Origin: Chromera velia
Lineage: Eukaryota
Assembly: GCA_018398765.1 (NCBI GenBank)
Contig: JAHBMJ010000247.1
Span: 1-52,858, forward strand
Direction of reading: 5' to 3'
Length of the DNA stretch: 52,858 bases
In this document: positions 2,445 to 52,858 of the stretch, in pieces
Layout of the letters: each line of letters opens with the position of its first letter
Numbering within the stretch: the first letter of the stretch is position 1
The notes under the pieces: model-generated
Database searches by the model: none
What the model saw: only the letters and a program-made list of their open reading frames with translations
What the model was told of the DNA's origin: nothing
Program-made: the position numbers and the translations under genes

Positions 2445-2475
2445 CGGGCAGGAAGGAGCATCACGTGACAGAATA

Positions 2476-4038
2476 GTCGCAAGAAGGACGGCAAGGACGG
2501 CGTTAGCAACGGTGGAGGCGGAGGCAGGGTGGTCGTATCGGTTGGTGGATGCAAGGGAAGGAAGAGGGAAGGGAGAGCAGGAGGAGACATGCACCATCCG
2601 TATATTTATCGATATTATTATATATTGATGTTGCATGCATAGAGGCCGGATGGAAAAGAGTTTGTAGAGCTAGAAAAAACATGCAACAGACTATGTGCAA
2701 ATACGGAAAATGCACGCAAATTCCTTTCTGACATACAGTGCATGTAGCCTACCACTTTTGTTCCTTTTCCCCTGTGCATTTCTACAAACCGAGCCGGAAT
2801 ATCCGATTTCGCCGATTGTCACCTAAACTGGCCAGGGTACTAGGGGAAGGGCGGGACTACAGCATACACTGCATGCGGCCTACACTAGTGCTAATCATTC
2901 ATGCACAATTCAAAAGAGGACAACGGTTACCATTCTCAAATGACAAGAAAATGACAGTCTGTCTTCAGTGGGAAAGAAGAAGCACTTTAATGTCTGCTGA
3001 CTTGTCATGAAGGTCTACCCGGCACTTGATCAACGCAATGAAGAGAACGGTTGCAAAAAGGACGGCAGGGACGGCATCAGCAACGGTGGAGGCGGAGGTG
3101 GGGTGGTCGTGTCGGTCGGTGGATGCAAGGGAAGAAAGAGGGAAGGGAGAGCAGGAGGAGACATGCACCGTCCGTATATTTATCGATATTATTATGTATT
3201 GATGTTGCATGCATAGAGGCCGGATGGAAAAGAGTTTGTAGAGCTAGAAAAAACATGCAACAGACTATATACGCAAACATAGAAAATACATGCAAATTCC
3301 TTTCTGACACACACTGCATGTAGCCTACCACTTCTGTTCCCTTTCCCCTGTGTATTTCTGCAAACCCAGCCGGAATATCCGATTTCGCCGATTGTCACCT
3401 AAACTGGCCAGGGTACTAGGGGAAGGGCGGGACTACAGCACACACTGCATGCGGCCTACACTAGTGCTAATCATTCATGCACAATTCAAAAGAGGACAAC
3501 CATTGTCAAATGATAAAAAAATGATAGTCTGTCTTCAGTGGGAAAGAAGAAGCACTTTAATGTCTGCTGACTTGTCATGAAGGTCTGCCCGGCAGTTGAT
3601 CACCGCGGTGAAGAGAACGGTCGCGAGAAGGATGGCAGGGACGGCGTCAGCAACGGTGGAGGCGGAGGTGGGGTGGTTGTGTCAGTCGGCCGGTGGATGC
3701 AAGGGAAGGAAGAGGGAAGGGAGAGCAGGAGGAGACATGCACCGTCCGTATATTTATCGATATTATTATATATTGATGTTGCATGCATAGAGGCCGGATG
3801 GAAAAGAGTTTACAGAGAAAAAACATGCAACAGACTATATGTGCAAACATAGAAAATACATGCAAATTCCTTTCTGATACACACTGCTTGTAGCCCACCA
3901 CTTCTGTTCCCTTTCGCCTGCACATTTCTGCGAACTCAGCCGGAATAACCGATTTCGTCGATTGTCACCTAAACTGGCCAGGGTATTAGGGGAAGTGCGG
4001 GACTACAGCATACACTGCATGTGGCCTACACTAGTGCT
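2476..4038. repeat. Tandem array of ~570-576-bp units (~2.7 copies)
   Basis: Units start near 2476, 3050 and 3620. Shared blocks include GCAACGGTGGAGGCGGAGG, TATATTTATCGATATTATT and CCTACACTAGTGCT (CTAG at 2885, 3461, 4031). Confidence 0.95.
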
Positions 4039-5589
4039 CAAGGTGACTGACATTCTCAAACTCCTCAGGGCTGGGCATTGGAAGAGTTTGCCTTCTGGTA
4101 CTCTTGCATTCGCTGCAGGAGATCACCATGCAGTTATGTATGCAGAATTGATCTCATACAAGAGAACATTGCCAACTGTGAGTGAGTACTCTGTTTTGTC
4201 TGTTTATTTTCTTTATACGGCTACTCTGCTCTCACAGAGGTCCTGTCCTTATATGTTTAGCAAAGAAGAGTACAGCAAAATACACAGCAGAAAGCGAAAA
4301 CAAAGAAAAGACATCGCTTTTGCACTCCCTGCGATATAGTCTGTACGCCTACCTGTTTGGTTCTTTGGTTCAGAATCTTTTTCATCTTCTTTCTCGTGGT
4401 TCCGTCGCCCACTGAGGCTGTGGTCGTGTCTGTGCCCTTCTTCTTCTTATTTTTTTTCTTCTTTTTTGAGATCTTTTTCTGCAGAGAGAGAAAACAGGGT
4501 AACATGTTTCGGACCATTCAACACCGGCACTGCCCACTCTCTGCTCGATGAGAAAGTGTGAATCAACACGGAGGGGGGGACAAGGCATTCGTACTGCATT
4601 CAGCGGGGGGTTGGGGAAGAACGGCGGCCCAGAAAAGGGAGAGGGGGAAGGGAAAACGGAAGAGAACTTTAAAATTGAGACTCAGGGGGGAAGATAAAAT
4701 ATCAGAAAAGCAGACTGGATAGAGAGCACTCGGGCGCAGAAACCTCCTTGGATGGGTTGGAGAGGGGCATACCAAAAAATACACTACCACCTACCTAGAC
4801 AGCTGTGGCGGAAGTTTCACCGTTCTGCAGAAACGTAAAACAAATACACGGAAAAAGCAGGACAAGGAGGCTTGATATACAGATTCTCTAAAACTTCACT
4901 AAGGGAAACACGTGGGAACATCATTCCGAGTGCTTCTGGGCATGTAGTGAACCGACCATTCTGAGGAGCTTGAGATTGCATGTGCACCCCTCGATGCCAT
5001 CGGGGCAAAGCACGAAGTCCTCCTCCATGCGAGCTGGCATTGCAAATTCAGAAGGGATCAAAATTCGAAAAAAAGGAGCTCTTTAGCTCTCTATACCTCT
5101 TTTTCCCTCTCTGTTGGACTGCCCTGTTTCTGCGCGATGGCTCCGGCAGTCAACTTTCCGGGGGTAACGTGACGGCCTGTAAGGAGTCCGCTGGGTGCCT
5201 TCTGCTGGAAGGGGAGCTGGGTCAAATGTACAGGACTGCACTTGAGAAGTGCACAATCTCTACGGTAGCCGCAATGTAATAGAAGCTCACGAGGGTCCAT
5301 CGTGTTTTTTCAAAGTAGAAAGCAGGAACTTAATGTGTTTGAAGAGTGTTGCACAGATCTGAAGTCGGAGGATCAGGCTGAAGTTGGAGGATTTGATCGA
5401 TCGAAGTAAGAGGATCCTGAAGTCGGAGGATCTAAAATATACAGTACACTGTTTTTTCATGAAACACCACGAACGGTACGAAAGTAACGAAACGCTGTAA
5501 TACGGCGTAGTACGATGTTTTTTGGCAATGCTGGACCGTTTGAGAGTGTAATTAAGTGTTTTTCAAATCATAGTTAATAAGAAAATTAT

Positions 5590-5891
5590 AGAAAGATTTA
5601 TATGTGATGTAACGGCCCTCAGGCCACAGGCACACAGCACTCTTACGTTACTCCTGTTTCTAGAGGTTGTGTCAACAGAGTCTCTTTCTCAACTTTATAT
5701 GAGCAGCAGTCTCTTGTTTTATCTGACTCCTCAATACGAATTTAATTACTGCAATGCATGCATTTGCATACATGCATTTAATTCTGCATGCATGGATTTG
5801 CAAGATATCCACGCGCTCGGTCTTGGCTCAATGGAAGGACGCCACGCCGCGGAGCCGGTTGGCTGGTGCCGGTCCCACTGCGCGTCTTTCT
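5590..5891 (-). repeat. 3' LTR of the copia element
   Basis: AGAAAGA...TCTTTCT; about 16 substitutions against 10813-11114 (manual count). Confidence 0.95.
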
Positions 5892-5956
5892 CACGGGGGT
5901 CCCCCCCATCTTGTTCAAATCCTTTTCCTTGTTCGTTTCTGTCCTCTTGCTTCTTT

Positions 5957-8900
5957 TCATACAAATTCTTTGCCTGGCCAGCAGGGTTTTGTTAGTGCGT
6001 TACCCATCTGAACTTGACGCCTATACCACATCACTTTCCCCCCAGTCCTGCCCAGTTCTTGGATCACGAAGTCCAACATCCCTTGGGATGTTCCGTCTGC
6101 TGCGACCCCCGATCTCAACTGTTCAAACAGGGGGTTGCAATCGGTAAAGAAAGTGACTAGTGGTTCGGTCCCCCACATCTGTGTTGACAGGGATTTGATG
6201 CATGGGAGATGTTTGACTACGCTTTCGAATGCGGTGGCTTCAGCTGCTGTGCTGCTCCCATGCTTGTGATTATATTTTTCTGTATGCCAGCTTATACAAT
6301 TCTCCCATAGATTCACTAGCTCTAACGCCTTCTCGGGTGTCCATCCTTCCTCTACGAGGAAAATCAGCTAACCCAGCCTCCCACTGTAGGTCTTGCGGGA
6401 ATAGGCGGAGTCAGGCATGATCGCTAGCATCATTCTCTTCAAACGGTTCAGTGCTCTCATACAGAGGGGCTCTTTCTTTTCTTTGAGCATTTCTATTACT
6501 CTGATGCCTGCCCGCACAATCCGTCTGCAAGGCCGTGTGGAGTGATAGCTCAACACATCAGCCCATACCCGTCTGTTTGGTCACGTCCTCACCATCCAGT
6601 GAGGGACTCCGTTGATGCTTCTCATCAGGGGTTCCAACCTTCTTTCCTTCTCTTTCTCCATTGCAGGTTCAAGCTCGGCTGCTCTGACTTCTCCCCCCTT
6701 TCTTTTCTCCCCCAAAACCCTCCATATGGCATCCGTGTTCACCCCTCTGCAGTAGGAGTCTTGGGAGATTTCGGCTGTACTATGGGAGAACATGAAGTCC
6801 ATACCTGCATATTTGATTGATGACTGAGGGGGGAGCTCCCGCAGGTGCCCCCAATCGAACTTTGTCTTCAGAAACTCGATCTCTCCCTCCATCTCCTTTT
6901 TTCCTTTTCTTCCCCCAAACACGTCGTTAATCCAGTTGATCTGAACACTATCAGCAGGCTGTCCAGATTCTCCTACCTTAATCGCGACCCCCGTTTCTAC
7001 GCGTTTGTAGCCTGCCTGTCCTTGCACTTCGGCAAGGCTCTTATCGAATATGTTTCCTGAGTAGGGCATTCCATAGAGGCCCTTCTCAATCAACCGCAAC
7101 TCTCCCAGCTTGATGGCCAGGGCGGCTCTGTGCAGCTCTGCACAGTCTTCATCATTGATGTCATCATAGGGGTTTGTGTCTGGGATTTTAGGCAGCCAAT
7201 CAGGGATGATAACGGCTGCGCATTTCTCGTTTCTGTCAGGGGCTGTAAGGAATGCACTAAAGATGTCTCCGGCGAACAGATTCAGAGAGAAAGTCAAAGA
7301 AAAGATAGCAAAGATCAGAATAGCCTAGACAGAAGGTGTGCCAACATAAGTATCGACCGCCTTCTTGTCCGTGAAACCCTTACCAAAGCACCTCGCTTTC
7401 GACTTTCTGTTGATTCCCTGCCTCTGCCTTCCTTCGTTCTCATCTCCAGTTCTTTTCATCCTTCCTTTCCTGCCTTTGTACTTCTAGGGCTGTTCCCCCT
7501 CTCTGTCGTACTGCAGCCTGTCACCCTTGCCCATGGTTTGTCTTGATTGTGCTGCCTTCTCTTCTTCCTGTCTGTTCTCTTCCTTCTCTTTCTCTACCTG
7601 CTGGGTTTCCTTTTCTTTCCATGTCAGCCTCCAGCCTATTTGCATGACAGAGTCAACTTCCTTCCTATCGACTACCCTGCCCAGAACCCCCTTACCTACA
7701 ATGTTCTTCAACCACTCGTCTCGGCACGCGACATCGAAGTCCCCCCTTGCGACCTCCTCCGGGAGTGCAGGAGTCTGGGTGGACCCCTGCTTGAAGTCAT
7801 CGAGGACCGTGAGTAGATGCTCAGGGTCGGGGCCCAGGTAGAAGCAGTCATGGGTAGGGGCAAGGAAGAAGACGTTCTAAGCGGGAGGTCGCTCATCCAG
7901 GTCAAACCCAGGGGGTCCCCCACTAGATTTCTCTCCATTATCTCTCGTCTCTTCCTGCTCTGCCTCCCTGTTCCTTCTTTCTTCACCCAACTGCCCACCA
8001 GTCAGAGCATCAGGTGCAAGATGATTCTCTCCAAAAAGAGAATCGTTGTCGTTGCTGTTGTCTCTACCCCCCGCAGCTTGAACTTCACCCCCCTCTGCTT
8101 GATCTCCGGATTGTCAGTGCCACCCCCCTGGCTTGATAGCCCCAGAGGGATTTGGGGTATGAACCGAACCGACGTTTCTATTCGGCTTTGAGGGCTGCTA
8201 GCTTGGTTTTTCTGTGGCGGTTCTTTCTTTCCACAAACCCGAGTGGCCCCTTTTCTCCTGCAGGGTTATCGAGGAACGTCATGCCTCTGCGTTCAATGAA
8301 ATCTCCTAGTGGTTCTCCATGAAATTCGGGTGCCTTGTCATATCAGATTCTGCCTGCTACGGCTTTCAAACCTTCCTTCTAGAATTGAACATGATCCCCA
8401 AACGACTCCATAAACTCAATGTGGTCACGCACTCCATCAACGGAGTGGTTACGGGAGTTGAGGGGATAGTCGAAATCGAGGCCACTATACTCATCTAATA
8501 CACTCAGGCAGCATGCATAAGGCCCGTTGACCTCATCATCATTTGGGAACCAGTGATCGAGTTGTATGATTTAGAAGGGCCCACCCGCATCCTCATATTG
8601 GGTGGGGACAGGTGTTAGAGTGGGAATGGTTGTGTTTTTGAGGGAACACAGCCGGCACTCTGTCTCAAGCCTTTTCCAGTCTTCAGTCCTTGCGTGCATC
8701 CCCCTGCTTGCCAGTGTGGGCTCTAGTTTGTCTTGACCGACATGTTCGAATCGTCTGTGATGTGCCCTAAGTTTCTCAAAACTGATTGTTCTCTCTCTGA
8801 TTGCCCATGCCTCCCCAGTCTTCTGCATTGCTTCTTTGACTTCGTCTGCTGTGGGAATGGATGTGGTTGTGAATGAAAGGTTGGAGGTGGCGTCTCCCTT

Positions 8901-10792
8901 AAGATTCTCAACTACCACCTCAACAAGAAAACCCCTCGCGTCTCGCACAATCACGTAGGAGTCCTTTCCCTCACGACGGAGGAGGGTTTCCCCCTCCTCA
9001 TGATCTTCCCACATCAGATAGGGGACTGGGTCTTCAGTCAGATACACCCACAAGAGCAGAACCTTCCATCCTTTCTCTCTCACTCAATTCTTTTGGGCAA
9101 TGCAAGCGAGACGAGAGATCTGAATTTTCTTTAGGGATTTTTGCAGAGCCACTCCGAATGAACCCTCACACGGCTCACTCCAGACTACCATCCCCCCAAG
9201 CTCTTTCTCCCAGCCAAGAGGTGTAGTCGTACATGAGTCTATGTGCATCCGTACAGACAGGCGGCCTGGCGGATCAACTTGACTGACCATTGACTGAACT
9301 TGTTTTGGGGGATCGGGTGGCTTCCTCTCGATCTCGTGCTCTGGAACTACGTACGCCTTGTGCGTCTCCGTCACAAACCAGGGCTTCGGTGCCCTATCAC
9401 GGAACTGAAACGTGATGCCCTGTTATTGTTTGATGATCCCTCCCTCCGCATCCTGAGAATATCACAAAGGGATAGAGAAAAGAGATGAGAAAGGAAGAAC
9501 AGTCATACACATATGCTGTCAAAAATGTTCAGAAAGGTGGCCTGCCTTCTGAAATGCTTTCCCAGTCAGGGCATTCTGCCCCCCAAATCTGCTGACCTCA
9601 TTGTAGTCAGGTGATTGCTCTTAACTTTTCCACTCGTCAGCAGCGTATGCCGCTTTTCCGTTGTATCAACCGGGGCCACCTCCACGCACTGCCTGCATCC
9701 CTCCACGTCCTCTGTACGCCTGTGGACGCCCCCTGCCTCGAGGGTTGGATGAGGGAGATAAAGGGGACTGCTGCTGTGCCTTCGCCTTCTTGTCACGGCA
9801 GCATTGGGTGAAGTGCCCCGTCCTCTGACAGATGTTGCAATGAGCCGATATCCCAGGGCATTCGTTGTATATTAGCCACTCGGCATCATGCCCCCCCTTC
9901 CGACCATATCTGGAGCAGTCTTTCTGTTTATGGGATCCATTCTGTCCCTCTGCTCTCCCCTGCTGACTCTCTTGATAACCTCCTCTTCCTGACCCTGCAT
10001 TGCCCCTGCCTCTGCCTCCCTTGTGGCTTTTCCCCCTCGAGGGAAACCCTGCACCCCCAATAAATGTAACCTCCTCCTTCACAATGGGAGACTTCTGTTT
10101 GGGGGGGTTTGGCGTAGAGCCTTGTGCTTTGACCCAGATAGGGGGGCCACCAGGAGGCTCATTGATAGCGTTGGTATGGGATTTAGCAGTAAGCCTTTTA
10201 GCCTCCACCATCATCTTGTCATAATCCGACAGATCGTCCTCATCCCAATCATTCTCCATCTTCTTCTGGTTATACTGGGGAAAGCAAGCAAACATGGCCT
10301 CTCTTCTCAACGATATAAGGACATCGCTCTCTGCGCCACAATTCTTCATTTCCTTAACCAGGGTCTCAAAAGAGTCTACCATCAGTTGGAAGGATTTATA
10401 TCTGTATCCGTTATCGGTAAGGGTCCGCCACTGTCGAGCGTTCTATTTCTTCTTTGTTCACGAGGTCTCATCCAGAAGTTGTTTCACCTTGTCCCTTAAT
10501 ACGTCTCTCTACTTGACCCACTCAATCTTCCCACCGAAATGAAAAGTGGTGTCGAGAGGGTTTTTCTTTTGGTCAAACAACAATTGAATGGAATTGCCTA
10601 CGATGTAATGGTTACGGGTTGCTGCGTAAATTCTGCAGCATGACAGCTGGCTTGCCACTGAGCAATTTGCTCTTCTGAGGCACCAAACAGTTTCTGATCT
10701 CCTTCAGTCCTGTTTTTGCAAGAATCCCACCAGGGCTGAAAAGTGTTATTCGCTCCTAATACAGGGAAAGGCGAACCACTGGAGTCAGACAT
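5957..10792 (-). pseudogene. copia gag-pol polyprotein with many in-frame stops and a frameshift near 8250
   Basis: Zinc knuckle CNICQRTGHFTQC; protease MHIDSCTT; pre-integrase HHRRFEH...CRLC; integrase QLDH, RI*YDKAPEF, GFVERKNR; RT GDIFSAFL, LIEKGLYGMPYSG, WINDV, T*PN; RNase H DSAY, SSTAAE, TDCNP, NALTKP. Confidence 0.92.
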
Positions 10793-10812
10793 TCTCTCGC
10801 TGGATCATTACC

Positions 10813-11114
10813 AGAAAGATTTATATGTGATGTAACGGCCCTCGGGCCACAGGCACACAGCACTCTTACATTGCTCCTGTTTCTAGAGGTTGTGTCAATA
10901 GAGTCTCTTTCTCAACTTCATATGAGCAGCAGTCTCTTGTTTTATCTGACTCCTCAATCTAAATTTAATTACTGCAATGCATACATTTGCATACATGCAT
11001 TTAATTCTGCATGCATGGATTTGCAAGATATCTATGCGCTCGGTCTTGGCTTAATAGAAGGACGCCACACCGCGGAGCTGGTTGGCCGGTGCCGGTCCCA
11101 CTGCGCGTCTTTCT
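10813..11114 (-). repeat. 5' LTR of the copia element
   Basis: Direct repeat of 5590-5891. The gag ATG at 10792 follows on the minus strand. Confidence 0.95.
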
Positions 11115-19669: not shown

Positions 19670-19740
<71 letters not shown>

Positions 19741-26509: not shown

Positions 26510-26551
<42 letters not shown>

Positions 26552-29918: not shown

Positions 29919-29962
<44 letters not shown>

Positions 29963-33300: not shown

Positions 33301-33829
33301 CCCGTACATTCACCTTTATTCTTGATGCATCGATTCATTTTTCACTGAACCGACTCCTCTTTCCCGTCTTCGCTGCGTTTTCTCGGCTTCTCTTCTCTCC
33401 TGTTCGCTTCAAAAGAAAGAATTGAAGCAGCGCCCCAAGAGAATGAATGAAAGGGATTTCGGGGCTTGAACAAAACAAGGGAAGAGGGAAAGGGTGGATC
33501 TCCCAGCCTGCACGCGGCTGCTGAGCGTATCCTTCCGAAGAGATGGAGTAATAAAGATACATGCATGCTTGCGTTCATGTACAGGCAGACTGTATTAATG
33601 GTGTGTGTATGATCTTGTGTATGTGTCCGTGCAGGACCTGTCTTGCAAACACAGGAAAACGGCCCTTCGGTGGTTGGTTCTTTTTTTCGCAAGCTTTCTT
33701 ATTTCTGTTATTACAGCGGTTTCTCTTTCATTCTTTGGCGACTAAAACCTTGAATGATGGTGTTGCCCCTCTTCTGTCTGCGTGAGCCAATAAGCCCTGC
33801 CTGATGAGGCACCTCATAGACTCTGTCTC

Positions 33830-33877
<48 letters not shown>

Positions 33878-39990: not shown

Positions 39991-40331
39991 GGGAGAGAAG
40001 GAAAGGAGAGGGCGGGAAAGAGAAAACAAACGCAGTTAGGCGGAGACGGACAGATATACGGACAGGCTAAACTTGAGTCTCAGACGTGCGGAGAGAGAAT
40101 GGGTGACGGATGTAAGTGAGGTAAGGGGACTCCGAGGTCTGTAGATTGAGCTGACTTATTTTTCAGGGGGAAAGGGCTGGTAGAAGGTTTGCTAGAAGGT
40201 TTGTGTACTGTGTTAGTGTTTGCTGTTGGACATCTCTTTCCTTTCTTCTGCGTTGTAGTGTCTTCCTTTGGGTGTCTAAGGGCTTCTTTAGGGCTCCTGG
40301 GCGTCTTCCCCCTCAGCCGCCTGGGGAGGGC

Positions 40332-43320
40332 TGTAAACTGTGTGCGTACTGGGCTAAGTAATAATAAGGCTAGCAGTATGGTGGGCTAGACAGAGATATT
40401 CTCGATCAGCCGTTTATAGAGGGAGTTCCATCTTAGAGTTCTGACAACAACCACTCATGCCAATTATCCAGCTTCTACTGCCTTCCAGGCTCTCTCTTGC
40501 TTGGCTACAGAACGCATGCCTCACTGTAAGTATCGTTTAGTACACAGACGCACGTGTTCATCGATCCCGCGCCCTACTCTGTGTGAGTACTAGCCCATCG
40601 AGCGACTAAGTACCATGACAGCCTTGTGGCGGCGCCATGTACAGGCCCTACATCTGCCTGCTCGCCGAGGCCGACGTCTATACTCGGCTCCCTTGCACTT
40701 TCTTTCTTTTCTTCTCACCATCCATATTCCATCCCTACATCTACCCGCTCGCTAGGTGGGTAGGGTGGGTAAATTCAATTCATTCAATCGCAATTCCTTC
40801 CATCAGATTCCTTTATTCAAAACAAAGTGATCACACGGCAGCAATAAAATGATAATATTAGTGCTGAGCTCTAGGCTTGGATCGCTGAATAAAAAAATCA
40901 TGCTGTCGACCTCCGAAATGGACGTATGTGGCTCAGTACACCCTCTTACACACACTGGCTGGCAAGCCTGAGCACTCAATTTCTAGTCGACTGTTCAGGG
41001 TACACGTTGGCCTCTAGTCTCAAAGGATTACAATACCTCCCATCTCCAGCCTACAACACACTCAGTGTGTTGCACATGTTACCCTCTCTACACCTCTCCA
41101 GTTTATCTTCTCACCTCAGGCCCCCCACTATCCCTCGCTGCGCCAAAGCCAAAATCGCATGTAGCCTGCTTATGGATGTGCACCTCCGTGTTCCTTCACA
41201 CACTTCTGACAGTCGGAAGCAAAAATCTCAGCCCTCTGCGAGCGGTACCATGACAATGATCTGCATGGGTGCCAGAGGATTCAGACACTGCGACGTCGTA
41301 CAGTCAGAACAAGATAAGTACGACCACACACCGACGAATATGGCTGCAAACAGCCGGGTTTTCTCTTTCTTCTTTTGACGCAAAGTCGACGGTTTAACAC
41401 AAAGTTAACACACTGCTCAGGACTCCTAATTACTAAGATATGCTTTCAGAGTTCACAGCATATGGGGCATGGTTCGACGCGCAGTCGATAGTCTTCCTGC
41501 ATATTGCTGGCTCAACGCGAAGTCAATACTCTCACTCTTCTGTTTGCTGTGTCAGCGTCATGCATGCCAATGGAGACAAACGGAGTCAAAAGTCAGTCAC
41601 ATTCGGGTGTACAGTTCCTTTTTCTTTCCTTCATAAAGCAACAAGCCGTTTCTAGTAAATGTCCAGACACTGTGAGCCTCACTCTGAGCGGCAAACAGTG
41701 ATGTCTATTCTGAATCAACCGTATCATCAACAAGTTGAACAGACTTTTTCTTTTCCTTTTATTCTTCCTCCCCACCCAGACAGATAAAAGGAAAGTAAAG
41801 ACAACAGAGACAACACAAGACAAAGACAGCAAGAGAAACAACACACCAACATTCGCCCTTAGGCTACAGACATCCCGGACGAAGTCATCAGCTCCCAGAC
41901 GGCCGTTCCCAGGCACTGAAGACATACAGCCTCTCTTTTCCCTGCCCCACTATCATTCCCTCACGCAGTCACTTCTCTTCATTGTCTCTTCTTTTTTGTG
42001 TTTGTATCTCTTCTCTTTGGTAATCCCTTCTCACTATAACAAACCCTCAGTCTCCCCACCTCCAACTTCTTTTCTCTCCTCTCCTTCTCTTTTCTCTCTT
42101 TCCTTCCCAACTGCCTTGGCCCCCATGACCCATTCCTATCACGAAGACACAATACAGTCAGGATGTACAGACAAGAGATACAGTCAGACATACCAGCCAC
42201 CAGACCCATACCAACTTCAACACACTCTCTCTCACTTCATTATCTCCCTTCTTTCCTCCCCTTAAAACAAATTTCTCAACCTTCAACCAACAACTAAAAG
42301 AAAACAATCTAAGAGTTCACTGACTTGGAGATGTACAGCAGTCATGGTACCCCCATAGCACTACTGAGCGTTTGGAAACGCAACACACCTGGTTGTGAGC
42401 AAAGACAAAGACCACACACCTCCAGTCACTACAACCAAAGCTCTACTCCACAAGATGCTCTTCCTCCTTCCATCCCAAACCTCTCACAGAGTAAATTTAA
42501 ACAGCCAAGAGCATCAGATTCTTCTGCATCACCTGGGCGCATTCCGTATAGATGTAGACACCTCGTGCTTTATTGCAGCACAATTAACAGAGACGGCACT
42601 TAGTCAGTCAGTCAGTTCAGTCAATCAGACTGAATGGTCTCCCTCCTCAAGCTTGTCCTTCTGGACCCTCATCTCCAGCGAGCTAGCAACCTTGAGTTCC
42701 AAAGACTCTCTCAAGACAAAGAGAACAGAAAGAAACACTGCACTCCATTACATCTGGAAGAGAGTCTTAAATCCACCACAAATTTCGATTTGAGAACAAA
42801 CAACACAAAGGAGACGAAATTTCTTTTCTTTCAATGAGTTTTTCTACTGACGAGCTGGTATTGTACTCTTGTTAGTACTGTAATAGACCTTGCGTACAGT
42901 GGTGAGAATTCTCTGTCCAGTCTGACTATTCATCAATACTACAAACTTTACGATCCACACCACATCTGCCTCCCTCTGTTGCCAAACGCTCTGCTAACCA
43001 AACTGTAAGCTGTGTGCGTACTAGGCTAAGTAATAATGAGGCTAGCAGTATAATGGTGGGCTAGACAGAGATATTCTCGATCAGCTGTTCATAGAGGGAG
43101 TTCCATCTTAGAGTTCTGACAACAACCACTCATGCCAATCATCCAGCTTCTACTGCCTTCCAGGCTTTCTCTTACTTGGCAATAGAACGCATGCCTCACT
43201 GTAAGTATCGTTTAGTGCATAAACACACATGCTCATCGATTCTGTACCCTACTCCGTATGAGTATAGCCCGTCGAGCGACTAAGTACAGCCTCGTGGCGG
43301 CACCATGTACAGGCCCTCCA
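40332..43320 (-). mobile_element. Non-autonomous or decayed LTR retroelement (~3 kb)
   Basis: ~320-bp direct repeats at 40332-40652 and 43004-43320 with TG...CA ends. PBS-like TGGTTAGCAGAGCG lies 3 nt after the right LTR on the minus strand, similar to the tRNA-iMet PBS. No recognisable gag or pol inside. Confidence 0.8.
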
Positions 43321-44553
43321 TCAGGAGGGCGGTATCTAGCGGAGTCGGTGAGGCTTTTAAGACATAGCCCAGCAGGTCCCCTCCTAGAAATCTTCTCCCA
43401 CTTCAGACACCTTGGAAAGCGTTGCGTACGGTTGAAAAGAAGAAGGGGGTCTGAAGCTCAGGGTAGTCCTTTTCCATATGAGTTCCTTTAAGTTAATTTT
43501 GTTCGGCTTCCCAGGTGGGACGAGGGGGTAGAGAGGTGGGGCAGGCTAAGGAGCATGTAAGGTGGTACTTCCTGCTTCTTCTTTAGAGGGACGTCCGAAA
43601 GGACAGTGCCCTCATTGCTGCATGATGCCTAGGACCGGACTGATCGATCTTGGGGCGCAGTGTTTTGCTAGCTAGTAATTCTGAAGTTCGGCCGCTTTAG
43701 GTGAGCAATCGCTAGCGTACTCCTAGCTTGTAATATAACATGAATGCTCACAGACTGCCCTTTACCATTGGGATACTATGGCTGGCGGGTTAAGTCATCT
43801 CATCATCATCATCATCAGTTGGTGGTAATCAATTCTTGTAAGTTATCCAGTGTTGTTCAATAGCCAGCCGTAGCCAGCATGCATGTGCGGCGATACGTAT
43901 ACGGAATATGCACATTCGCGCCGTGATGGCTCTTGGCATCGTCAACTGCATACGCCGGACATTGATTGTTTAAAGTAGTTTAAAGTTTACATAGGTAGGG
44001 TATAGTAGGGTGTACTTGTGCGCTTGATACTACTTCGTACTACTAGGTATACCAAACGTGGCCAGCCCCCCCCGCTAGTATGTATGGTTAGTGTTTGTCT
44101 GTTTTGTGGCGTCATATAATGAAGTCTTGAACAAAGAGCCCGCATAAGCATGCAGACTCGCGTTCGTGGGAAAAACAGGCCTAAACGCCATCAAAACTAT
44201 GACAAAACGCTCTAGCGTGCAACTGGAGTGCGCGAAAGTGGTAAATTTTGTTCTATACAGCAAATTTGTCTATATTTGTTTTTTTTTTTTACAAGTCAGT
44301 TCGCGCGCATTGCGCACGGAGTCAAGTGAGTACATGCGTGAGTGCGTGCGCCATCGCAGGAACTCACTTACCCAGCGGCAGCTGCAACCCCCATGACGTG
44401 CGTAGACGGGCGGCACGCGGGCCATGCAACGCGCACGGCACCATCCATGCATGGAACACCTAGCTCACATTTTCTGGGATTTTGCGCCTTCCGGGCCCCC
44501 ATGCATTTAGCTCGGCATTTCTTACATTTTTATTCTAGACGGGATTTTATCGA

Positions 44554-44947: not shown

Positions 44948-47518
44948 ATGGAAAACAAAGAAGTGGGTGATCAGCTGTTGGAAACGAAGTCCTTCCAAAC
45001 GGAGAAGAAGAGAGACCAAAGCAGGGACGATGGCCTCTCTGTCCTCGTCAAGCGTTTCGGTTCGTCTTCCAGCATGCTGACAGACCTATTGAAGCAAAGA
45101 GATTCCTTTGGTGTCGCATGGCTGAGCGCTTTCGTGTTTGAGAAGAATAGAACAATGGGAAAGATCGGCCTCGAGGCCCCACACAGTCTAGACCTCTCCG
45201 AAGTAGCCGCGCATGGAATTCCACGTGAGAAGGTCTTCCTACTTCTCGACTTTCTCCCGTCGTCCATCTATGAGATGAAGGTTGATGGTCAGGTCGTGCA
45301 AGGACCTGCCTTCTGTCTGTTCACCCGATTCCTAAAGAGGCTGCAAAGTGGCAGAGAGGGGGGGGGGTTTCGAGCTCACCTGAGGAAGTTCACGTTTGTT
45401 GACCACACCATAGGACCTGTGGAAGCCCCCATCGTCTTTCCTCTCCTCTTGTCCTCCTTGGAGAGTCTGTGCCTGAAGGGCAACACACTAGGCACTGAGG
45501 GCTTCCAAGCCCTTGCGGATGAGATCGCTGCCGGAAGAGCCTCCCGCCTCCTCCTTTTAGATCTTCAGAACACAGGCCTTGATATGCAGAGGATGGAGGT
45601 GCTCTGCCAAGCAATGAAGGGTCTCTCTCCGCATACAGACGCGCAATTTATCGGACAATTTCCTTGCAGGGTTCCGAAAGGAAGTTCTGTCTCCTGAGTT
45701 GTGCGTGTCTGCGCTGTCAAACCTCCGTGTGCTGCGTTTAAGGCACTGCTGTCTGAGCAACTTTTGCGCATCCGAGCTGAACCAGGTACTCTCCAAGGGG
45801 TGTCTACTCAGACTCGAAACACTGGATGTGGGGGGGAACGCTTTCTTGTACACCAAGTTGATCGACTCTCTTCATAAGGGTGTTCTGCCGTCGTTGAAGA
45901 ATTTCTATCTGCCGAAAGCCGGGGGTTACTTTCGGGGGTCTGTGGCCCGGGAGTCGGTTCTTCCGTTTCTTCAAGCCCTTCAGGCCCCCACACGCCCCCT
46001 TCTTGAGCGTGTTAGCCTCCACTTAGCAAACATGAAGGAAGAAGTTTTGAGAGCCTTGGCTGCGGGTCGGTACCCAGCTGTTCGCTGCCTTGAACTTGAC
46101 CTTTTCAACAATCAGATCGAACTTTTTCTCAAAGAGATTCAGCAGGGCGCCTTCGAGGCTCTTAGATTGAATCTGAGTGATTGGAGGCGGATCATGTCGA
46201 TCCCGGTATGGCAGTGCCGGTACAGACAATGCTAAATAGAAGCCTTGCCCTGCTTGGCAGTTGCATTCAAAAAGGGTCTATCGGCTTTCTTCAAAGCGTG
46301 CGGGTGAGTGCCTCACTCGGGGGTTTGAATCCCCAGGCAGGAAGGAGGGCGTTCTTTGCGAGCTTCGGCTTGGCAGAGAAGAAAGTTTCTATGCTCTCGG
46401 AGTTGTCTTTTCCCGACATGAAAGTATCCAATGAAGACCTCGTCTTGTTGGCAGAGGGTGTCAGAGTTGGGAATCTTGGCAGCCTACGTCTTCTTGATTT
46501 GGGAAAGAACTGGAGAATTGGGAAGGAGGGGATGGATGCGGTCATGCAGGCTGTGCTTGAGAACGAAGCAGGTTTGCCTCTTCTCGAGAAGCTCCTTCTT
46601 CCACGCACAAACGCAGGGCGCGGTGCTGCCTCGTTATGCACTGCGCTGAGGTCCGGAAGGTTGCCCAGACTCTCTGAGATTGATCTCGAGGGTACTGGCC
46701 TGAATCTTTCGGCAGTGAAAGCACTCGCAGACACAGTCAGGGGAGGGCATCTGTCTCGTGTTTCCTCTCTCCGCATCTGCGGAAATGTTTTTGTTTTCGC
46801 AGACGCATGGAGTGAGTTCATCGAAGGCATCACAGAGGCAGAGGGCCCCGGTCTGCCCTTCCTGAAGTCTTTGGACTTTTCGGGCACGAAGGCTGGGGGG
46901 GGGTTGGTTGGTCTCGGTGCTGCACTTGTGAGTGGAAGGTTGGATGCAGTCACGGAGGTGAAGTTGAGGAATTCATCGTTGACCGATTCGACTGTCAGAG
47001 GTTTAGCAGATGCACTCAGAGAGGGGCAGCTTCGCTGTCTCACTCTTCTAGACCTGAGTTTCAACGAGAGGGTGGCCGGTGAGACGTGGGCAGAATTTCT
47101 CCGGGCCATGGCAGAGACTCACAACAGTCTTCCCAAAATGAAATCCCTCAATCTGTCAAAAACCAAAGTCGGCGAGGGGGCAGTATCTGTCGGATGTGTT
47201 GCACTTTTCAGGAAGGTACAGAGAAGCTGCATTATCGATTTGCAATGCACTGGGCTGGCAGATGAGTCAGTCATCCGGCTCGGGGAGTCTCTCAGAGGGG
47301 TGTTTGCCAGCAGTGGGACTTTAAAACTGGCAAAGGATGTTGACTTTGGGTGGAATGCAAATCACCTCGTGAAGGGGGGGGCTCAGATAGTGGAGGGGCC
47401 CCCTGGGGTGACAGACATCTTCATAGCATCGCCAAATAACACTGATGACCGAGCTTTGGTCAATGTAGAGGAAGCTGTTGACGAGTTGTGGGCAGGGCTG
47501 CTTGGTTCTACTTGGTGA
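44948..47518 (+). pseudogene. Intronless RI-like leucine-rich-repeat protein with two frameshifts (~45625, ~46183)
   Basis: Repeated LxxLxLxxN/T units across ORFs 44936-45697, 45699-46235 and 46181-47518: LESLCLKGN, LLLLDLQNT, LRVLRLRHC, LETLDVGGN, LRLLDLGKN, LTLLDLSFN. Confidence 0.85.
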
Positions 47519-48267: not shown

Positions 48268-50127
48268 TTAAACGTTCAACCCTCTTAAATGCTCTTCCAA
48301 CAAGAGAAGGGTCGCATTTCTTTCATCCTTTTTCACCCCCCCCTTTTTATCAAAAAAACTTTTGATTGCCCTTTCACGATACTTTCGCTGAGCGGTTTCA
48401 ATCTCTTGTGGAGTCCCAAAGTAGTCTTTGCGGGAGTTTTCATTGTGTAGACATTCGCGCACATGTTGGTGAGCACTCCGCAAATCAGCGCCATGATAGG
48501 CATGATACCAGCCACAAAAATGAGCCATGCAACTTTCGCACTTCAATGCCATACAGCCTGTGAAATCTGCATAGAATGCCCTGCAGTTTAGGCAGCACAG
48601 GTTCAGAACTTCATCTCTGATCTGCACAGCCAGTCGTTCAACCTTCTGCTTGAACTCGTCTGATCTATTCCCGACGTCATCCAGGATACGTTGCCTCTCC
48701 TTCTCCAATTTCTCTTCAAACTCAACCCGAACGTCCCCCTCCACTTCATTCCGAACGGCATCCCTCCTAGCGCTCTCGAATCTCTCAAACACCTCTGTCG
48801 GCAGTCGGGTTGCCAGGGATTGGACTCTGAACTGACAAACAGACAGTTGTGGGCGACGGAAACGTCCCCCTCCCTGTGCTGCTGCGACTGCCATCGGTTG
48901 ACCCTCCGCAGCTGTCCTCCCAATCGGGCAGAGAAGACAGCTGCGGGTAGATCGGAGAGATGACAACTGATCTTCGAACAGAGGTTTCATGCACTCAAGG
49001 CACCAGAAGTGCCCTCCTGTGCAGAGGACACCTTCGGACGCACGTTTTCTTTCTAAGTACGCGCTGCAGTTATGCTGCTGCTCGCATGCTCGGTTCACGT
49101 GTGCAAGGTCCTCCAGGAGGCTCACAGAGCGAAACGCAAGATCAACGAACGCCTTGCGGCACGCCGCAGCTGTTGCAGTACACCGAAGCTTGGCGCCTCC
49201 ATCAACAACCTCATACCAGAAGCTGGTGGGACCCCGGAGGAGCATGCAAGCCCCCCGTGGTTTCTCCAAATCCTCCCGAATGGCATTCGCGACTGCAGGA
49301 GGGAAGTGAGAGATCTCACAATCCTCCACAAGACCGCAGTCCTCAGGAGGCTTCTGCAACAGATGTCTGACGTCTCTCACGCACTCACGTACTTTCTCTT
49401 TCAGGCCTCGAAAATGCAGATTGTGGCGACCCGACTGACCTACGTCCGACCTGACAATGCAAAGCTTTTCAAGCACTATGCTTTCTATCCGCTCCCTCAA
49501 AACTCCACTTGATCTCAACAATCCCGCCTGACTTTCCCTCATCTCGAGGGTACCGGTCTCAAGGCGAGCTGCAGAGCCAGACAGATTCTCTATCTCCTTC
49601 TTCCACTTCTGTATCTGTTTCTTTGAGGAGAGGGGAAGCGATGAGTTCTTTCGGAGACTGTCAAGCTGGGTCTCATCGAAAAAATCCCCCAAGACTCGGA
49701 CTTTCGGTTTCTCCAGAAGAAACTCTGACTCGTACTTGTCCCCCTCAGAGGGATCTCTTAACTGTGCGTCTGAGTGAGCAAACGCATACAAGGAGCCGTG
49801 GGGATATGTACCTTTGTGGCCACACATCTTGGTGCGGTACACAGAGGGGTGGAACATTTGCTCGTTCTTATTGCGAGCGCCATCAAAGAAGTACGGGGTC
49901 TTGAACGGATCTCCTCTTCTCTCGGCATCACTGTGAAACCCAAAACAGACAGCTCTATCATGAGGATCCTGTACATTGCAGGGCTGTGTTTTGAACTGGG
50001 ACATCGTCACTCTGGCATCGTCAATGCGCTCCGCATGAGACGTAGGCTCAGCTTTGCCCCGTCTCGTTGACGCGGAAGCTGAGCCAGCGGATGGATTTGA
50101 TCCCCATCTCTTGAAGGGTTGTGTCAT
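48268..50127 (-). CDS. Intronless protein with Unkempt-like CCCH zinc fingers, a possible KH-like segment and a RING plus IBR/Rcat (RBR-like) E3 module; several zinc ligands mutated
   Basis: FKTQPCNVQDPHDRAVCFGFH; YRTKMCGHKGT(Y)PHGSL(Y)AFAH; CSA(Y)L...LCTGGHFWCLEC...LLCP; C(L)NC...DFTGCMALKCESCMAHFCGW(Y)H...HQHVREC. Confidence 0.8.
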   Translation of the reverse strand: MTQPFKRWGSNPSAGSASASTRRGKAEPTSHAERIDDARVTMSQFKTQPCNVQDPHDRAVCFGFHSDAERRGDPFKTPYFFDGARNKNEQMFHPSVYRTKMCGHKGTYPHGSLYAFAHSDAQLRDPSEGDKYESEFLLEKPKVRVLGDFFDETQLDSLRKNSSLPLSSKKQIQKWKKEIENLSGSAARLETGTLEMRESQAGLLRSSGVLRERIESIVLEKLCIVRSDVGQSGRHNLHFRGLKEKVRECVRDVRHLLQKPPEDCGLVEDCEISHFPPAVANAIREDLEKPRGACMLLRGPTSFWYEVVDGGAKLRCTATAAACRKAFVDLAFRSVSLLEDLAHVNRACEQQHNCSAYLERKRASEGVLCTGGHFWCLECMKPLFEDQLSSLRSTRSCLLCPIGRTAAEGQPMAVAAAQGGGRFRRPQLSVCQFRVQSLATRLPTEVFERFESARRDAVRNEVEGDVRVEFEEKLEKERQRILDDVGNRSDEFKQKVERLAVQIRDEVLNLCCLNCRAFYADFTGCMALKCESCMAHFCGWYHAYHGADLRSAHQHVRECLHNENSRKDYFGTPQEIETAQRKYRERAIKSFFDKKGGVKKDERNATLLLLEEHLRGLNV

Positions 50128-50709
50128 CGCGCCAGGTAGTTTGTCGAAGCCTCAGAACTGCTTCTACAAGTAAAAATCTGTCAGTGACCTGCGTTTCGTC
50201 TCGCAGGGGCTGTATATAAGACTTTGGCCGTTCAAGCAAGCTTTTCTGTAAAAGGACCCGAATCTGATCTGCCAGACAACCATCAAACAGACCGAGACAA
50301 ATTAAGTTGGGGAAGGCGGACACGTTGTTGTCGCCTTGAACCTGAGTCGACCTGTGATCGAGGCGGCAACTGGTGTCAGATTAGACCGCATTCAGAATGC
50401 TGAGCATCGATCGGGGAGACGGGGACTGCGTTTTGCAAGCATTCCGAGTTAAAAGGGCGCGCATCTTAATTGCCGGGCGCTTGAGGTTCAGGTCGGCGCG
50501 CGGGACCATGCATGCAGCATGTGCGCGCAAAACGCGCGTACATGCATGCATAGCTACATATATATAGTGCGCAGACATTTGTGGCTTCGGATGCATGGCA
50601 GAGAAGTTGCACAATGATGAAACCTGCATGACGTTAATTAATTTTTTCACCAGCCCAGACGACATCTGCCTCTGGGAAAGACAAACACAGTTTAGCAGCG
50701 ACCCTGAAA
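50128..50709. promoter_or_regulatory. Divergent promoter region with two TGCATGCA palindromes
   Basis: Lies between head-to-head genes; TGCATGCA at 50509 and 50543. Confidence 0.4.
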
Positions 50710-51955
50710 ATGGACGAGCTCGCGAAGTTTGCCTACGTTAACGGGAGTGCCTTCCCGAAGGTACCCCAATCCGTGTTCAAAGGCATGGCTGGATTGCCTG
50801 ACCTGAAGCTCGATGATCTTTTCGCAGGCATGGGCTTCAACAACAAAGACAAAGACACTGACAAGTATTTGAAGAAAAGCTGCCCCTGTCCCGACGAATT
50901 CGAGGTCCGACTTGCAGATGCTTCAAATTCAAACCCGTGCGGAACCTGTGCCGTGGTCGACACCCCCTTGCGCCGCAACCGGTATGACCTGAATGGAAAT
51001 GATGTCGGAGACTACACGCCGGACAAAAGCGGACTGGACGCTCCCGGTGACTTTCCCGACAACCCCACTTCCTCTGATGTCCCCTCTGCCCGCTTTGTGA
51101 GCAATACTGTTCACAAGCAGACTGCCCCGTTGGTACCCAACCAAATGGGGTGGTCTGACTTCCTCTGGGCCTGGGGGCAGTTTCTCGACCACGATCTGGA
51201 CCTCACCCCTGAGGGTGCCATCCACGCTGACATCGGCGTGCCAACGGGAGACCCGACCTTCGACCCGCAGTCAACCGGCACACAAGTCATCCCCTTCAAG
51301 AGAGCACGAGTAAGCAACCCAGGAGATCCAGAAGACCAACAAGTGCACCCAAACATCATCACCGGATATATAGACGGATCCAACGTGTACGGAAGTTCAA
51401 ACGCCACCACCAACTGGATCCGCACATTTGAAGGGGGGCGGATCAAAATGTCCCCCAACAATCTCCTGAGATATCTGGGAGACGGGCAGACACGCCCACC
51501 AGATGACAGCGTCTTCAGTGCATCCTTTGACAGGAAGGCCTTCATTGCGGGGGACGAAAGAGCCAACGAGAACCCGGTGCTCGCCTCTATCCATACACTC
51601 TGGGCAAGAGAACACAACCGCCTGGCAGACGAAAAGACCAAAGAGGGGCTGAACGATGAGGAAGCCTTCCAGTGTGCTCGAAGGCTTGTCGTCGCACAGC
51701 TCCAGCACATTTCCTACGCGGAATTCCTGCCGCGCCTTGTGGGTCCAGACTACTTCCCCATGCCGGTACGTGTGGGATTGAGTAGGAATCCTTGAGTTTC
51801 GGCGACAAATTTGTCTTTCATTGGGTCCTGCCTAAGCTCATGATTTCCGCTCCATCAAGTGCGTTCTCTTTTCTGCGGTTTGATTCGAAGTTTCCTCCCT
51901 GCTTACTTCAAGTCGATGGCCTCTGTCTGTAGTCCTGCCTGTGCATGTGTACGTG

Positions 51956-51993
<38 letters not shown>

Positions 51994-52858
51994 TGTGTGT
52001 GTGAATGTACAAGACTGGAAGGGAGAGAAATCCATGCGATCCGAGGGAAACGTGTTTGCGGACGAAAAAGGAGAAAGCACGCTCTCCAGGAAGAAAAACA
52101 AGAAAGCGCAGGCATGCATGCCCATGTTCGAGACGTTGCTGTGTTTGTAAGTTCAGTTCACCCTTTCTCTCCCTTTCCCTTTCCCACTGCAGAACTTTGA
52201 CAAGCCAGACGGTCAGCCGAACGCCAACTGCCGTGCCTGGGCAGCAGACCCTCCTGATCCGTCTATCGAGGAGCCCTTCTCGGGTGCCGCATTCAGAGTG
52301 GGGCACACCCTTGTGACCCCTGACCTTCTTCTTGTGGACGACAAGGGAAAGGAGCTGAAGGACTCCCCCATCCCCCTGAGAGAGACCTTCAACACTGAGG
52401 CACCCGAACTTCTGGAGCGGTACGGCATCGAGGCCTTCCTCCTCGGTCTCACTGCTCGCAGGTTGGTTGATTGTCGAGTTTCTTTCTCTCTGGGTGATGA
52501 GGCAAAACTTCTGTACCTGCTGCAGAGCTACTGGTGCAGCTGCAGTCAGTGAGGCAAGAAAAGGAAGACCCGGTTCGAGTCCAGTGCGTCTGATCAGAGT
52601 TCGACTACCGCAAGAAGCGTGGATCCTCATCTGAAGTCTCATGCGGAATGTACTTATTTGCCGTTCTGAGCTCTCCCCATCCACAAGCGAGAAAGAAAGA
52701 GTGAATGAATGAGCTCTGACTCTTGTCTGTGTGCAGGGCTCAAACGTTGGATGTCATGATTGCTGATGACCTCCGCAACATGCTCTTCTTCGGGTGCTCG
52801 ATGTGTGACACCCCCCGGGGAACCGATCTGATCTCTCTGAACATCCAAAGAGGCCGTG
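50710..52858 (+). CDS. Heme peroxidase, peroxidase-cyclooxygenase (animal-type) superfamily; 3' end runs out of the window
   Basis: WGQFLDHDLD, TGYIDGSNVYGS, AGDERANENPVL, REHNRLA, AAFRVGHT, DLRNMLF, DLISLNIQRGR. Exons 50710-51765, 52193-52461 and 52737-end are phase-consistent. Confidence 0.93.

What the first reader, a model, noticed from the sequence alone, without database searches (positions are those of the whole stretch)
48268..50127. Open ORF whose zinc-ligand cysteines are systematically turned to tyrosine: a RIP-like TpG->TpA footprint
Seen: in a 619-codon ORF, four positions where the CCCH/RING/IBR consensus expects Cys read Tyr. They are TAT 49806-49804 and TAT 49788-49786 (second CCCH), TAC 49059-49057 (RING CSAY) and TAT 48507-48505 (FCGWY). 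Each is one TG->TA change from TGT/TGC. CxNC also reads CLNC (CTA, one C->T from CCA). Known: CpA->TpA on either strand is the hallmark of fungal repeat-induced point mutation. Inference: this is a duplicated gene copy inactivated by a repeat-directed C->T hypermutation system in an alveolate-like genome, where I know of no such described system.
Basis: partly seen in the sequence, partly recalled or inferred. Interest (0 to 1): 0.85.

Follow-up and report, generated by a model that had tools for sequence, protein, structure and literature searches.

The report
CpA-biased C-to-T decay in Chromera
In the alga Chromera velia, four conserved cysteines of a likely dying ubiquitin-ligase gene read tyrosine, and a nearby retrotransposon carries the same C-to-T bias at CA and CG steps, which likely reflects mild methylation-type decay of silent DNA rather than the fungal RIP defence.

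Summary
All four Tyr codons and the CTA sit at the stated places, in columns where 27-28 of 28 homologues keep Cys or Pro. The window is Chromera velia DNA. The ORF belongs to an undescribed protist family of CCCH-(KH-like)-RING-Rcat proteins.

The ORF itself does not show RIP. I found no duplicate, its RIP indices are ordinary (TpA/ApT 0.43), silent TpA is not raised (20/93 vs 82/454 in host exons), and there are no stops.

Better evidence lies 37 kb away, in an LTR retrotransposon. Its LTRs differ by 15 transitions and 1 transversion (CpA 7/50, CpG 6/24, CpT+CpC 0/60). Among four copies, 34 of 42 polarised changes are C-to-T, and 3 of 8 Cys read Tyr. So Cys-to-Tyr is the usual way a Cys codon decays here.

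The bias is mild, hits CpG as hard as CpA, and was not shown to be repeat-triggered. Best reading: methylation-type decay of a relaxed gene. A RID/DNMT4-driven system outside fungi stays open (about 17%); a paper classes the sister alga Vitrella's methylase as DNMT4. Earlier scan notes report RIP-like patterns in other genomes, none in this one.

The parts
48268..50127 (-). Open ORF, 619 codons (database protein starts at M42): CCCH x2 - KH-like - RING1 - helical linker - Rcat-like; likely an RNA-binding RBR-like ubiquitin ligase in decay
49774..49980 (-). Two Unkempt/AtC3H23-like zinc fingers; first intact, second has lost two of four ligands
   Evidence: Pfam PF25512 E 9e-4, below cut-off; Unkempt 5elk E 0.019
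49804..49806 (-). TAT, Tyr108 (family Cys 27/28)
49786..49788 (-). TAT, Tyr114 (family Cys 28/28)
49081..49563 (-). Alpha/beta middle region, KH-like by weak fold matches only
   Evidence: (no match at E<=0.001)
48835..49068 (-). RING1 with a 26-residue insertion (about 48838-48918) between the last two expected ligands
49057..49059 (-). TAC, Tyr357 (family Cys 28/28)
48451..48594 (-). Rcat/IBR-like C-terminal zinc domain; Cys525 in the F-x-G-C-M-A motif, the likely catalytic Cys (recalled RBR motif), is kept
   Evidence: (homologues hit PF22191 IBR_1)
48589..48591 (-). CTA, Leu513 (family Pro 28/28)
48505..48507 (-). TAT, Tyr541 (family Cys 28/28; 113 Cys and 0 Tyr among 149 hits)
5590..11114 (-). 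Dead copia-like LTR retrotransposon with ATTAT target-site duplication; main evidence for the C-to-T spectrum
5590..5891 (-). 3' LTR, 302 bp, 94.7% identical to the 5' LTR
10813..11114 (-). 5' LTR; the pair differs by 15 transitions and 1 transversion, CpA 7/50, CpG 6/24, CpT 0/37, CpC 0/23
2470..4070 (+). Tandem array of about three 574-bp units; transitions at CpA and CpG, but in both directions by majority polarisation
40331..43322 (+). Direct repeat pair 40331-40654 / 43003-43322, 89% identical; CpA 9/44, CpG 8/24, CpT 4/52, CpC 1/28
44948..47518 (+). Neighbouring Chromera LRR gene broken by two frame changes, no stops in 819 codons, no TpA excess

Best explanation
The four Cys-to-Tyr codons are real derived TG-to-TA changes in a gene that has likely lost selection on its zinc sites, and they likely come from the same mild C-to-T pressure at CA and CG steps that is visible in the window's repeats, likely through deamination of methylated cytosine in silent DNA rather than a RIP-type burst. 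Shown: the substitutions, their absence in homologues, the CpA/CpG transition bias in three of four scored repeat pairs, and its C-to-T direction in the retrotransposon. Inferred: loss of ligase and RNA-binding function, a shared cause for gene and repeats, and methylation as the chemistry. The frame has likely stayed open because decay is recent and light (about 4-8% per CpA site) and stops were purged for a time or missed by chance; the ORF was also picked out because it is open.
For: ORF is an outlier in its family: 11/59 conserved columns changed vs median 1. LTR pair: 13 of 74 CpA/CpG sites differ vs 0 of 60 CpT/CpC sites, p 5e-4. Five repeat pairs pooled: 114 transitions to 27 transversions; CpG 30/176, CpA 42/351, CpT 15/322, CpC 11/241. 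Four element copies: 34 C>T, 4 T>C, 3 transversions, 1 multi-step among 42 polarised changes; per site 32/246 vs 4/269, p 1e-7. In the element 3 of 8 Cys read Tyr and no Cys became anything else. CpG is hit as hard as or harder than CpA, as 5mC deamination predicts (established knowledge). The ORF has ordinary RIP indices and silent sites.
Against: Simple neutral decay fits poorly: the joint chance of 4 or more C>Y, no stop and no H>Y is at best about 1e-3; it rises to about 0.02 only if stops are purged. No 5mC data for Chromera were found, and its methylases were not tested. The tandem array gives 27 C>T to 14 T>C, with TpA>CpA 8/50 vs CpA>TpA 9/58, so direction is not clean there. The 98%-identical inverted pair shows no CpA bias (1/51; 6 events in all). 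In element coding changes CpA (12/60) is not above CpT (10/66), p 0.49. The adjacent broken LRR gene shows no TpA excess and no stops.
Confidence: 0.5

Rival explanations
1. Chromera has a weak homology-triggered, RIP-like system run by a DNMT4/RID-type enzyme that mutates CpA and CpG in repeats. The ORF is a lightly hit copy whose partner is unannotated, or it was hit by leakage.
For: Post-insertion LTR differences are confined to CpA/CpG and C>T outweighs T>C about tenfold in the element. Silent TpA is higher in the element than in host exons (88/284 vs 82/454, p 7e-5). Host introns and spacers hold TpA at 16% of TpA+CpA sites, far below what the element's spectrum would give at equilibrium (inference). 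PMC10538959 lists a DNMT4-class protein (CEM15752) as Vitrella's only DNA methylase besides DNMT2.
Against: No partner found for the ORF. Composite RIP index is above zero in only 2 of 52 one-kb windows. Experimentally shown RIP in Zymoseptoria is 240/242 CpA (PMC10294615); here CpG equals or exceeds CpA. Element copies remain about 90% identical with open frames of up to 450 codons, and TEs total about 30 Mb in Chromera (PMC4501334). The DNMT4 placement of the Vitrella protein differs between the paper's two trees, and PMC9998398 found no DNMT4 outside diatoms in MMETSP (whether Chromera was examined is not shown).
Confidence: 0.17
2. There is no targeting and no methylation. Chromera has a genome-wide transition bias at pyrimidine-purine steps, and four C>Y in one open ORF is chance plus the way the ORF was picked from very many genes.
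For: The tandem array shows CpA<->TpA changes in both directions. With that spectrum Tyr is the expected outcome in 53% of non-synonymous Cys changes. The ORF's silent sites do not differ from host exons (p 0.47).
Against: The element's spectrum is strongly one-way while single-copy DNA is about 50% GC and TpA-poor (o/e 0.27-0.41), which needs an opposing force if the bias is genome-wide.
Confidence: 0.22
3. The gene is functional, and nuclear A-to-I RNA editing turns the four UAY codons into UGY, which would explain why only Cys codons look hit.
For: Open frame, no stops, no silent excess, all invariant His kept. Two further departures (K473, S551) are also one A-to-G step from the family residue.
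Against: P513L, A496V and other departures would need U-to-C or more than one step. The 90% cluster has one member, with no Cys-bearing transcript version, but the other Chromera proteins seen also lack transcript-derived members, so this is weak. The same C>Y pattern occurs in a dead retrotransposon. No paper on nuclear editing in Chromera turned up (listing only).
Confidence: 0.06
4. The changes are consensus errors or a rare haplotype in the draft assembly.
For: The assembly is a shotgun draft in 5953 scaffolds (PMC4501334). No reads were examined.
Against: The changes share one context-specific class that recurs in the window's repeats; random base-call error would not be expected to do that.
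Confidence: 0.05

Closest known systems
Repeat-induced point mutation (RIP) of Neurospora crassa and Zymoseptoria tritici (RID/DNMT4 and DIM-2 pathways)
   Same: C-to-T transitions on both strands of repeats, CpA among the main targets, LTRs hit, Cys>Tyr and Trp/Gln>stop as protein outcomes.
   Different: CpG is hit as often as CpA (RIP in Z. tritici: 240/242 CpA, PMC10294615). Density is about 7-9% of CpA per copy and RIP indices stay unreached. No duplicate is shown for the ORF. Enzyme and timing are unknown in Chromera.
5-methylcytosine deamination in methylated transposons (CG plus non-CG methylation)
   Same: CpG highest, then CpA, then CpT and CpC; slow one-way C-to-T decay; CpG o/e 0.55 in the element vs 0.73-0.77 in host DNA.
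   Different: The CpA share is high for a CG-only system, and no methylome or methylase is documented for Chromera in the searches made.
RBR E3 ligases (RNF216, HOIL-1, Ariadne) with Unkempt-type CCCH fingers
   Same: RING1, a C-terminal Rcat/IBR-like zinc domain with a G-C motif, and N-terminal CCCH fingers; best though weak fold matches are RNF216 and Unkempt; Atlas neighbours are fungal CCCH-RBR proteins, all below 0.9.
   Different: Only one IBR/Rcat-like domain follows RING1, via a long helix. The family is unnamed and spread over protists (Tetraselmis, Cladocopium, Chlorarachnion). This copy lacks four or five ligands.
Ty1/copia LTR retrotransposons
   Same: LTRs, 5-bp target duplication, and gag zinc knuckle, integrase, RT, RNase H order (motifs recalled; RVT_2 E 0.045).
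   Different: LTR termini read AG...CT rather than TG...CA, and the Pfam score is below cut-off.

Membership tests
RIP (fungal type) | Target is a duplicated sequence (about 400 bp or more, PMC10294615) | tested here: inconclusive
   No copy of the ORF in the window; no close paralogue among proteins of 340-1084 aa (top 7994 candidates) or 30-316 aa; longer proteins and unannotated copies not searched, genome not held. The element is multi-copy.
RIP (fungal type) | Changes are one-way C-to-T | tested here: inconclusive
   Element: 34 C>T vs 4 T>C of 42. Tandem array: 27 vs 14 of 48, majority-polarised and so unreliable.
RIP (fungal type) | Near-exclusive CpA context | tested here: not met
   LTR pair CpA 7/50, CpG 6/24; pooled CpA 42/351, CpG 30/176; element coding CpA 12/60, CpG 8/36, CpT 10/66, CpC 2/84.
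RIP (fungal type) | RIP indices reached (product above about 1.1, substrate below about 0.9; thresholds recalled) | tested here: not met
   ORF 0.43 / 1.38; element 0.59 / 1.43; LTRs 0.70 / 1.56. Composite index above 0 in 2 of 52 windows.
RIP (fungal type) | Excess in repeats over single-copy DNA | tested here: inconclusive
   Composition only: silent TpA element 88/284 vs host exons 82/454 (p 7e-5); ORF 20/93 differs from neither (p 0.47, 0.09). No single-copy substitution data available.
RIP (fungal type) | RID/Masc1 (DNMT4) methylase in the genome | not tested
   Chromera proteome not searched. PMC10538959 assigns Vitrella CEM15752 to DNMT4 with unstable placement.
RIP (fungal type) | Acts premeiotically, triggered by homology | not testable with these tools
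   Needs crosses or an engineered duplication.
5mC deamination decay | CpG is the most mutable context and is depleted in the target | tested here: met
   CpG 0.17 per site vs CpA 0.12, CpT/CpC 0.05; element CpG o/e 0.55.
5mC deamination decay | Targets carry 5mC in CG and CA | not testable with these tools
   No Chromera methylome found.
RBR E3 ligase | RING1 with eight ligands | tested here: not met
   The family keeps them; this copy has Tyr357 and Gly403 or a shifted Cys431.
RBR E3 ligase | Separate IBR and Rcat domains | tested here: inconclusive
   Only one IBR/Rcat-like domain after RING1; Pfam IBR E 0.075 for the ORF; IBR_1 passes cut-off in 1 of 4 full-length homologues scanned.
Ty1/copia LTR element (5590-11114) | Paired LTRs with target-site duplication | tested here: met
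   302-bp LTRs at 94.7%, ATTAT on both flanks.
Ty1/copia LTR element (5590-11114) | RVT_2-type reverse transcriptase and TG...CA termini | tested here: inconclusive
   RVT_2 E 0.045, below cut-off; termini AG...CT.

The most novel reading that the evidence does not exclude
Chromerid algae run a RID/DNMT4-type genome defence that recognises repeats and drives C-to-T mutation at CpA and CpG: a RIP-like system outside fungi, in the closest photosynthetic relatives of apicomplexan parasites, with this ORF as a collateral victim.
Probability: 0.17. Interest if true: 0.85.

Novelty: new member of a known kind. Interest (0 to 1): 0.4.

Why it matters
As a single gene it is an ordinary decaying copy. 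The spectrum in the repeats matters more: it suggests that Chromera marks silent DNA at CA as well as CG, which I did not find described. The function of non-fungal DNMT4 enzymes is stated to be unknown (PMC9998398), and the sister alga Vitrella is listed with DNMT4 as its only DNA methylase besides DNMT2 (PMC10538959). If Chromera is alike, its LTR pairs make the question 'does DNMT4 mutate or methylate repeats outside fungi' testable from public data alone.

Tried and rejected
Whole-genome paralogue search: no genome is held, so copy number of the ORF is open. Transcript and read evidence: none was obtained, so editing and assembly error are untested. Close relatives of the ORF in metagenomes: 126 pattern hits, none confirmed. 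Viral contigs: one weak partial hit, E 9e-8, not followed. Retroposition inferred from the lack of introns: rejected, because 7 of 22 metagenome loci carry the family as one near-full-length ORF. A ubiquitin-like domain in another frame upstream (50051-50380), which would have implied a 5' frameshift: no support from Pfam, PDB, the hits or the Atlas. The RING insertion as an intron: a 78-nt GT...AG reading is possible but would not supply the missing Cys (sequence); not pursued. One-strand (G-to-A only) burst: fits the Cys and stop counts (L 0.09) but predicts silent xTA of 38% against 8/47 seen, p 0.001. Wider sequence context of CpA changes: none (5' base p 0.20, 3' base p 0.64). Rfam: 0 matches in the window. 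Pfam on 149 of 179 listed stop-to-stop frames: only MORN, LRR and peroxidase hit, so host exons used as controls, apart from the peroxidase, were delimited by eye. Exact look-up of 10 window ORFs: 2 found. Foldseek: nothing at E<=0.001.

Full report
Observation. The ORF at 48268-50127 (minus) is open for 619 codons. A search of 1.84 billion representatives gave 1126 hits at E<=0.001. I aligned 28 long ones out of the 149 non-self hits listed. The columns are Cys in 27/28, 28/28, 28/28 and 28/28 and Pro in 28/28, never Tyr. At the C541-equivalent position the 149 hits give 113 Cys, 6 other, 30 unmatched and 0 Tyr, and none of 22 metagenome loci has Tyr at the four sites. Of 20 invariant Cys, 15 are kept, 4 read Tyr and 1 reads Gly next to a 26-residue insertion; 8 of 8 His are kept. 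The ORF departs from 11 of 59 near-invariant columns against a median of 1.

Identity. The neighbouring LRR gene's two database relatives are Chromera velia CCMP2878 proteins. A window ORF (6584-7069) clusters at 90% with three named C. velia proteins. The ORF's family has two Unkempt-like CCCH fingers, an alpha/beta region with weak KH-like fold matches, RING1, a long helix and one Rcat/IBR-like domain (model pLDDT 77.6, pTM 0.40; no Foldseek match at E<=0.001). Named members come from Tetraselmis, Cladocopium and Chlorarachnion. Its likely job is RNA-guided ubiquitin transfer (inference from the domains). Losing two ligands of finger 2, one or two of RING1 and one of Rcat would likely unfold these domains (established knowledge of zinc sites).

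Is the ORF RIP-mutated? Not by any test I could run. It has no copy in the window. No close paralogue was found among proteins of 340-1084 aa (only itself among the 7994 scored) or 30-316 aa; longer or unannotated copies remain possible because the genome is not held. TpA/ApT is 0.43 and (CpA+TpG)/(ApC+GpT) is 1.38. At silent sites TpA makes up 20/93 of TpA+CpA/TpG, against 82/454 in 2925 host codons delimited by eye (p 0.47). There is no stop at 25 Gln, 4 Trp and 8 CGA codons from M42 on. A two-strand RIP at the rate seen on Cys would give about 7 stops (P0 0.001). A one-strand burst predicts 38% silent xTA against 8/47 (p 0.001).

Where the signal is. The window holds a 5.5-kb LTR element at 5590-11114 with an ATTAT target duplication. 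LTRs are identical at insertion (established knowledge), so their differences arose afterwards: 15 transitions and 1 transversion, at CpA 7/50, CpG 6/24, CpT 0/37 and CpC 0/23 (p 5e-4). Against three C. velia paralogue proteins about 90% identical, 42 of the amino-acid differences could be polarised by majority or by stops: 34 C>T (CpA 14, CpT 10, CpG 8, CpC 2), 4 T>C, 3 transversions and 1 multi-step. Per available site this is 32/246 vs 4/269 (p 1e-7). Two caveats: codons of the other copies were inferred from the window's, and a transition was preferred where a transversion also fitted. The window copy has Tyr at 3 of 8 Cys, stops at 2 of 12 Trp and 1 of 17 Gln, and 0 of 4 His changed. Five repeat pairs pooled give 114 transitions to 27 transversions, with CpG 30/176, CpA 42/351, CpT 15/322 and CpC 11/241. 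Silent TpA is 88/284 in the element vs 82/454 in host exons (p 7e-5); the ORF cannot be told from either (p 0.09, 0.47).

Results against a clean story. The tandem array gives 27 C>T, 14 T>C and 7 transversions in 419 columns, with TpA>CpA 8/50 as frequent as CpA>TpA 9/58; three-copy polarisation is unreliable, but this is not one-way. The 98%-identical inverted pair shows no context bias in its 6 C/T events. In element coding changes CpA is not above CpT (p 0.49). RIP indices are not reached even in the element (0.59 / 1.43). The broken LRR neighbour has two frame changes but no stop in 819 codons and no TpA excess. Under neutral decay the ORF's combination of 4 or more C>Y, no stop and no H>Y has a joint probability near 1e-3 at best, and about 0.02 if stops are purged. 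Either selection kept the frame open while the zinc sites relaxed, or this is a rare draw noticed because it is open.

Mechanism. Best reading (0.5): a gene released from selection on its zinc sites took a few C-to-T hits from a pressure that favours CG and CA steps, under which Tyr is the commonest fate of a Cys codon. The chemistry is likely deamination of 5mC laid on silent DNA; this step is inferred and unmeasured. Rivals: a weak homology-triggered DNMT4 system (0.17), an untargeted genome-wide bias plus chance (0.22), A-to-I editing that restores Cys (0.06), and assembly error (0.05).

Literature. PMC4501334 (passages): Chromera has about 30 Mb of TEs vs 1.5 Mb in Vitrella; the words methylation, editing and pseudogene do not occur in the main text. 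PMC10538959 (passages and supplement rows): Vitrella CEM15752 is classed DNMT4, with DNMT1, DNMT3, DNMT5 and DNMT6 not detected; its clade splits from canonical DNMT4 in one of two trees; Chromera is absent from the text and 10 supplements. PMC9998398 (passages; 14 of 23 supplements searched without a Chromera or Vitrella hit; the 9 unread files may bear on this): diatom DNMT4 is related to RID, its function is unknown, and none was found in other MMETSP species. PMC10294615 (passages): RIP needs duplicates of about 400 bp, and 240 of 242 changes were at CpA. PMC12543289, PMC3538342 and PMC5890265 (passages): background on RIP and on methylases in retrotransposons; the last has no mention of Chromera. 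Searches pairing Chromera or non-fungal lineages with RIP, methylation or editing found no description of this pattern (listings only, apart from the papers named). RIP index thresholds, RBR and copia motifs are recalled.

Verdict. Observation confirmed; interpretation partly supported. The ORF is weak evidence for RIP, but the retrotransposon in the same window shows a real CpA/CpG C-to-T bias in Chromera that deserves a genome-wide test. Interest 0.4; novel case 0.17 probability, 0.85 interest if true.

Noticed in passing
window 5590-11114 (-): Copia-like LTR element whose LTRs begin AG and end CT instead of TG...CA, with an ATTAT target duplication, a TGG-initiated primer-site-like stretch and a purine tract; several Chromera 'uncharacterized proteins' are fragments of it.
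   Followed up: partly
window 44948-47518 (+): Chromera-family LRR gene with two frame changes (near 45620 and 46150-46190) and no in-frame stop; its first piece is held in the protein collection as a separate 249-aa protein.
   Followed up: partly
window 48268-50127 and loci L002-L023: Unnamed protist protein family CCCH x2 - KH-like - RING1 - helix - single Rcat-like domain, apparently an RBR without a separate IBR; one member (P0010) ends in a PARP-like tail and others fuse the RING-Rcat module to kinases or helicases.
   Followed up: partly
window 50051-50380 (-): 110-codon open frame overlapping the ORF's 5' end that looked ubiquitin-like by eye; no database support.
   Followed up: yes
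window 435-1023 / 1885-2444: Inverted duplication, 98% identical over 392 bp, that copies the 3' end of a reading frame; no CpA bias between the arms.
   Followed up: partly
window 40331-40654 / 43003-43322: Direct repeats 89% identical around 2.3 kb with no Pfam hit, possibly the LTRs of an older non-autonomous element; TpA o/e 1.3 in the repeats, the highest of the regions scored.
   Followed up: partly
window 50710-52549 (+): Animal-type haem peroxidase gene (PF03098, E 2e-55) split by microsatellite-rich introns, head to head with the ORF.
   Followed up: no
window 18001-37000: Host-gene region is strongly TpA-poor (o/e 0.27 in exons, 0.41 in introns and spacers) while repeat-rich regions reach 0.56-0.93.
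   Followed up: partly
window 7639-6290 (-) and 48268-50127 (-): In both element and ORF, sense-strand TG>TA changes (Cys, Trp) outnumber CA>TA changes (His, Gln): 5/20 vs 1/21 in the element, p 0.09; unexplained possible strand bias.
   Followed up: partly
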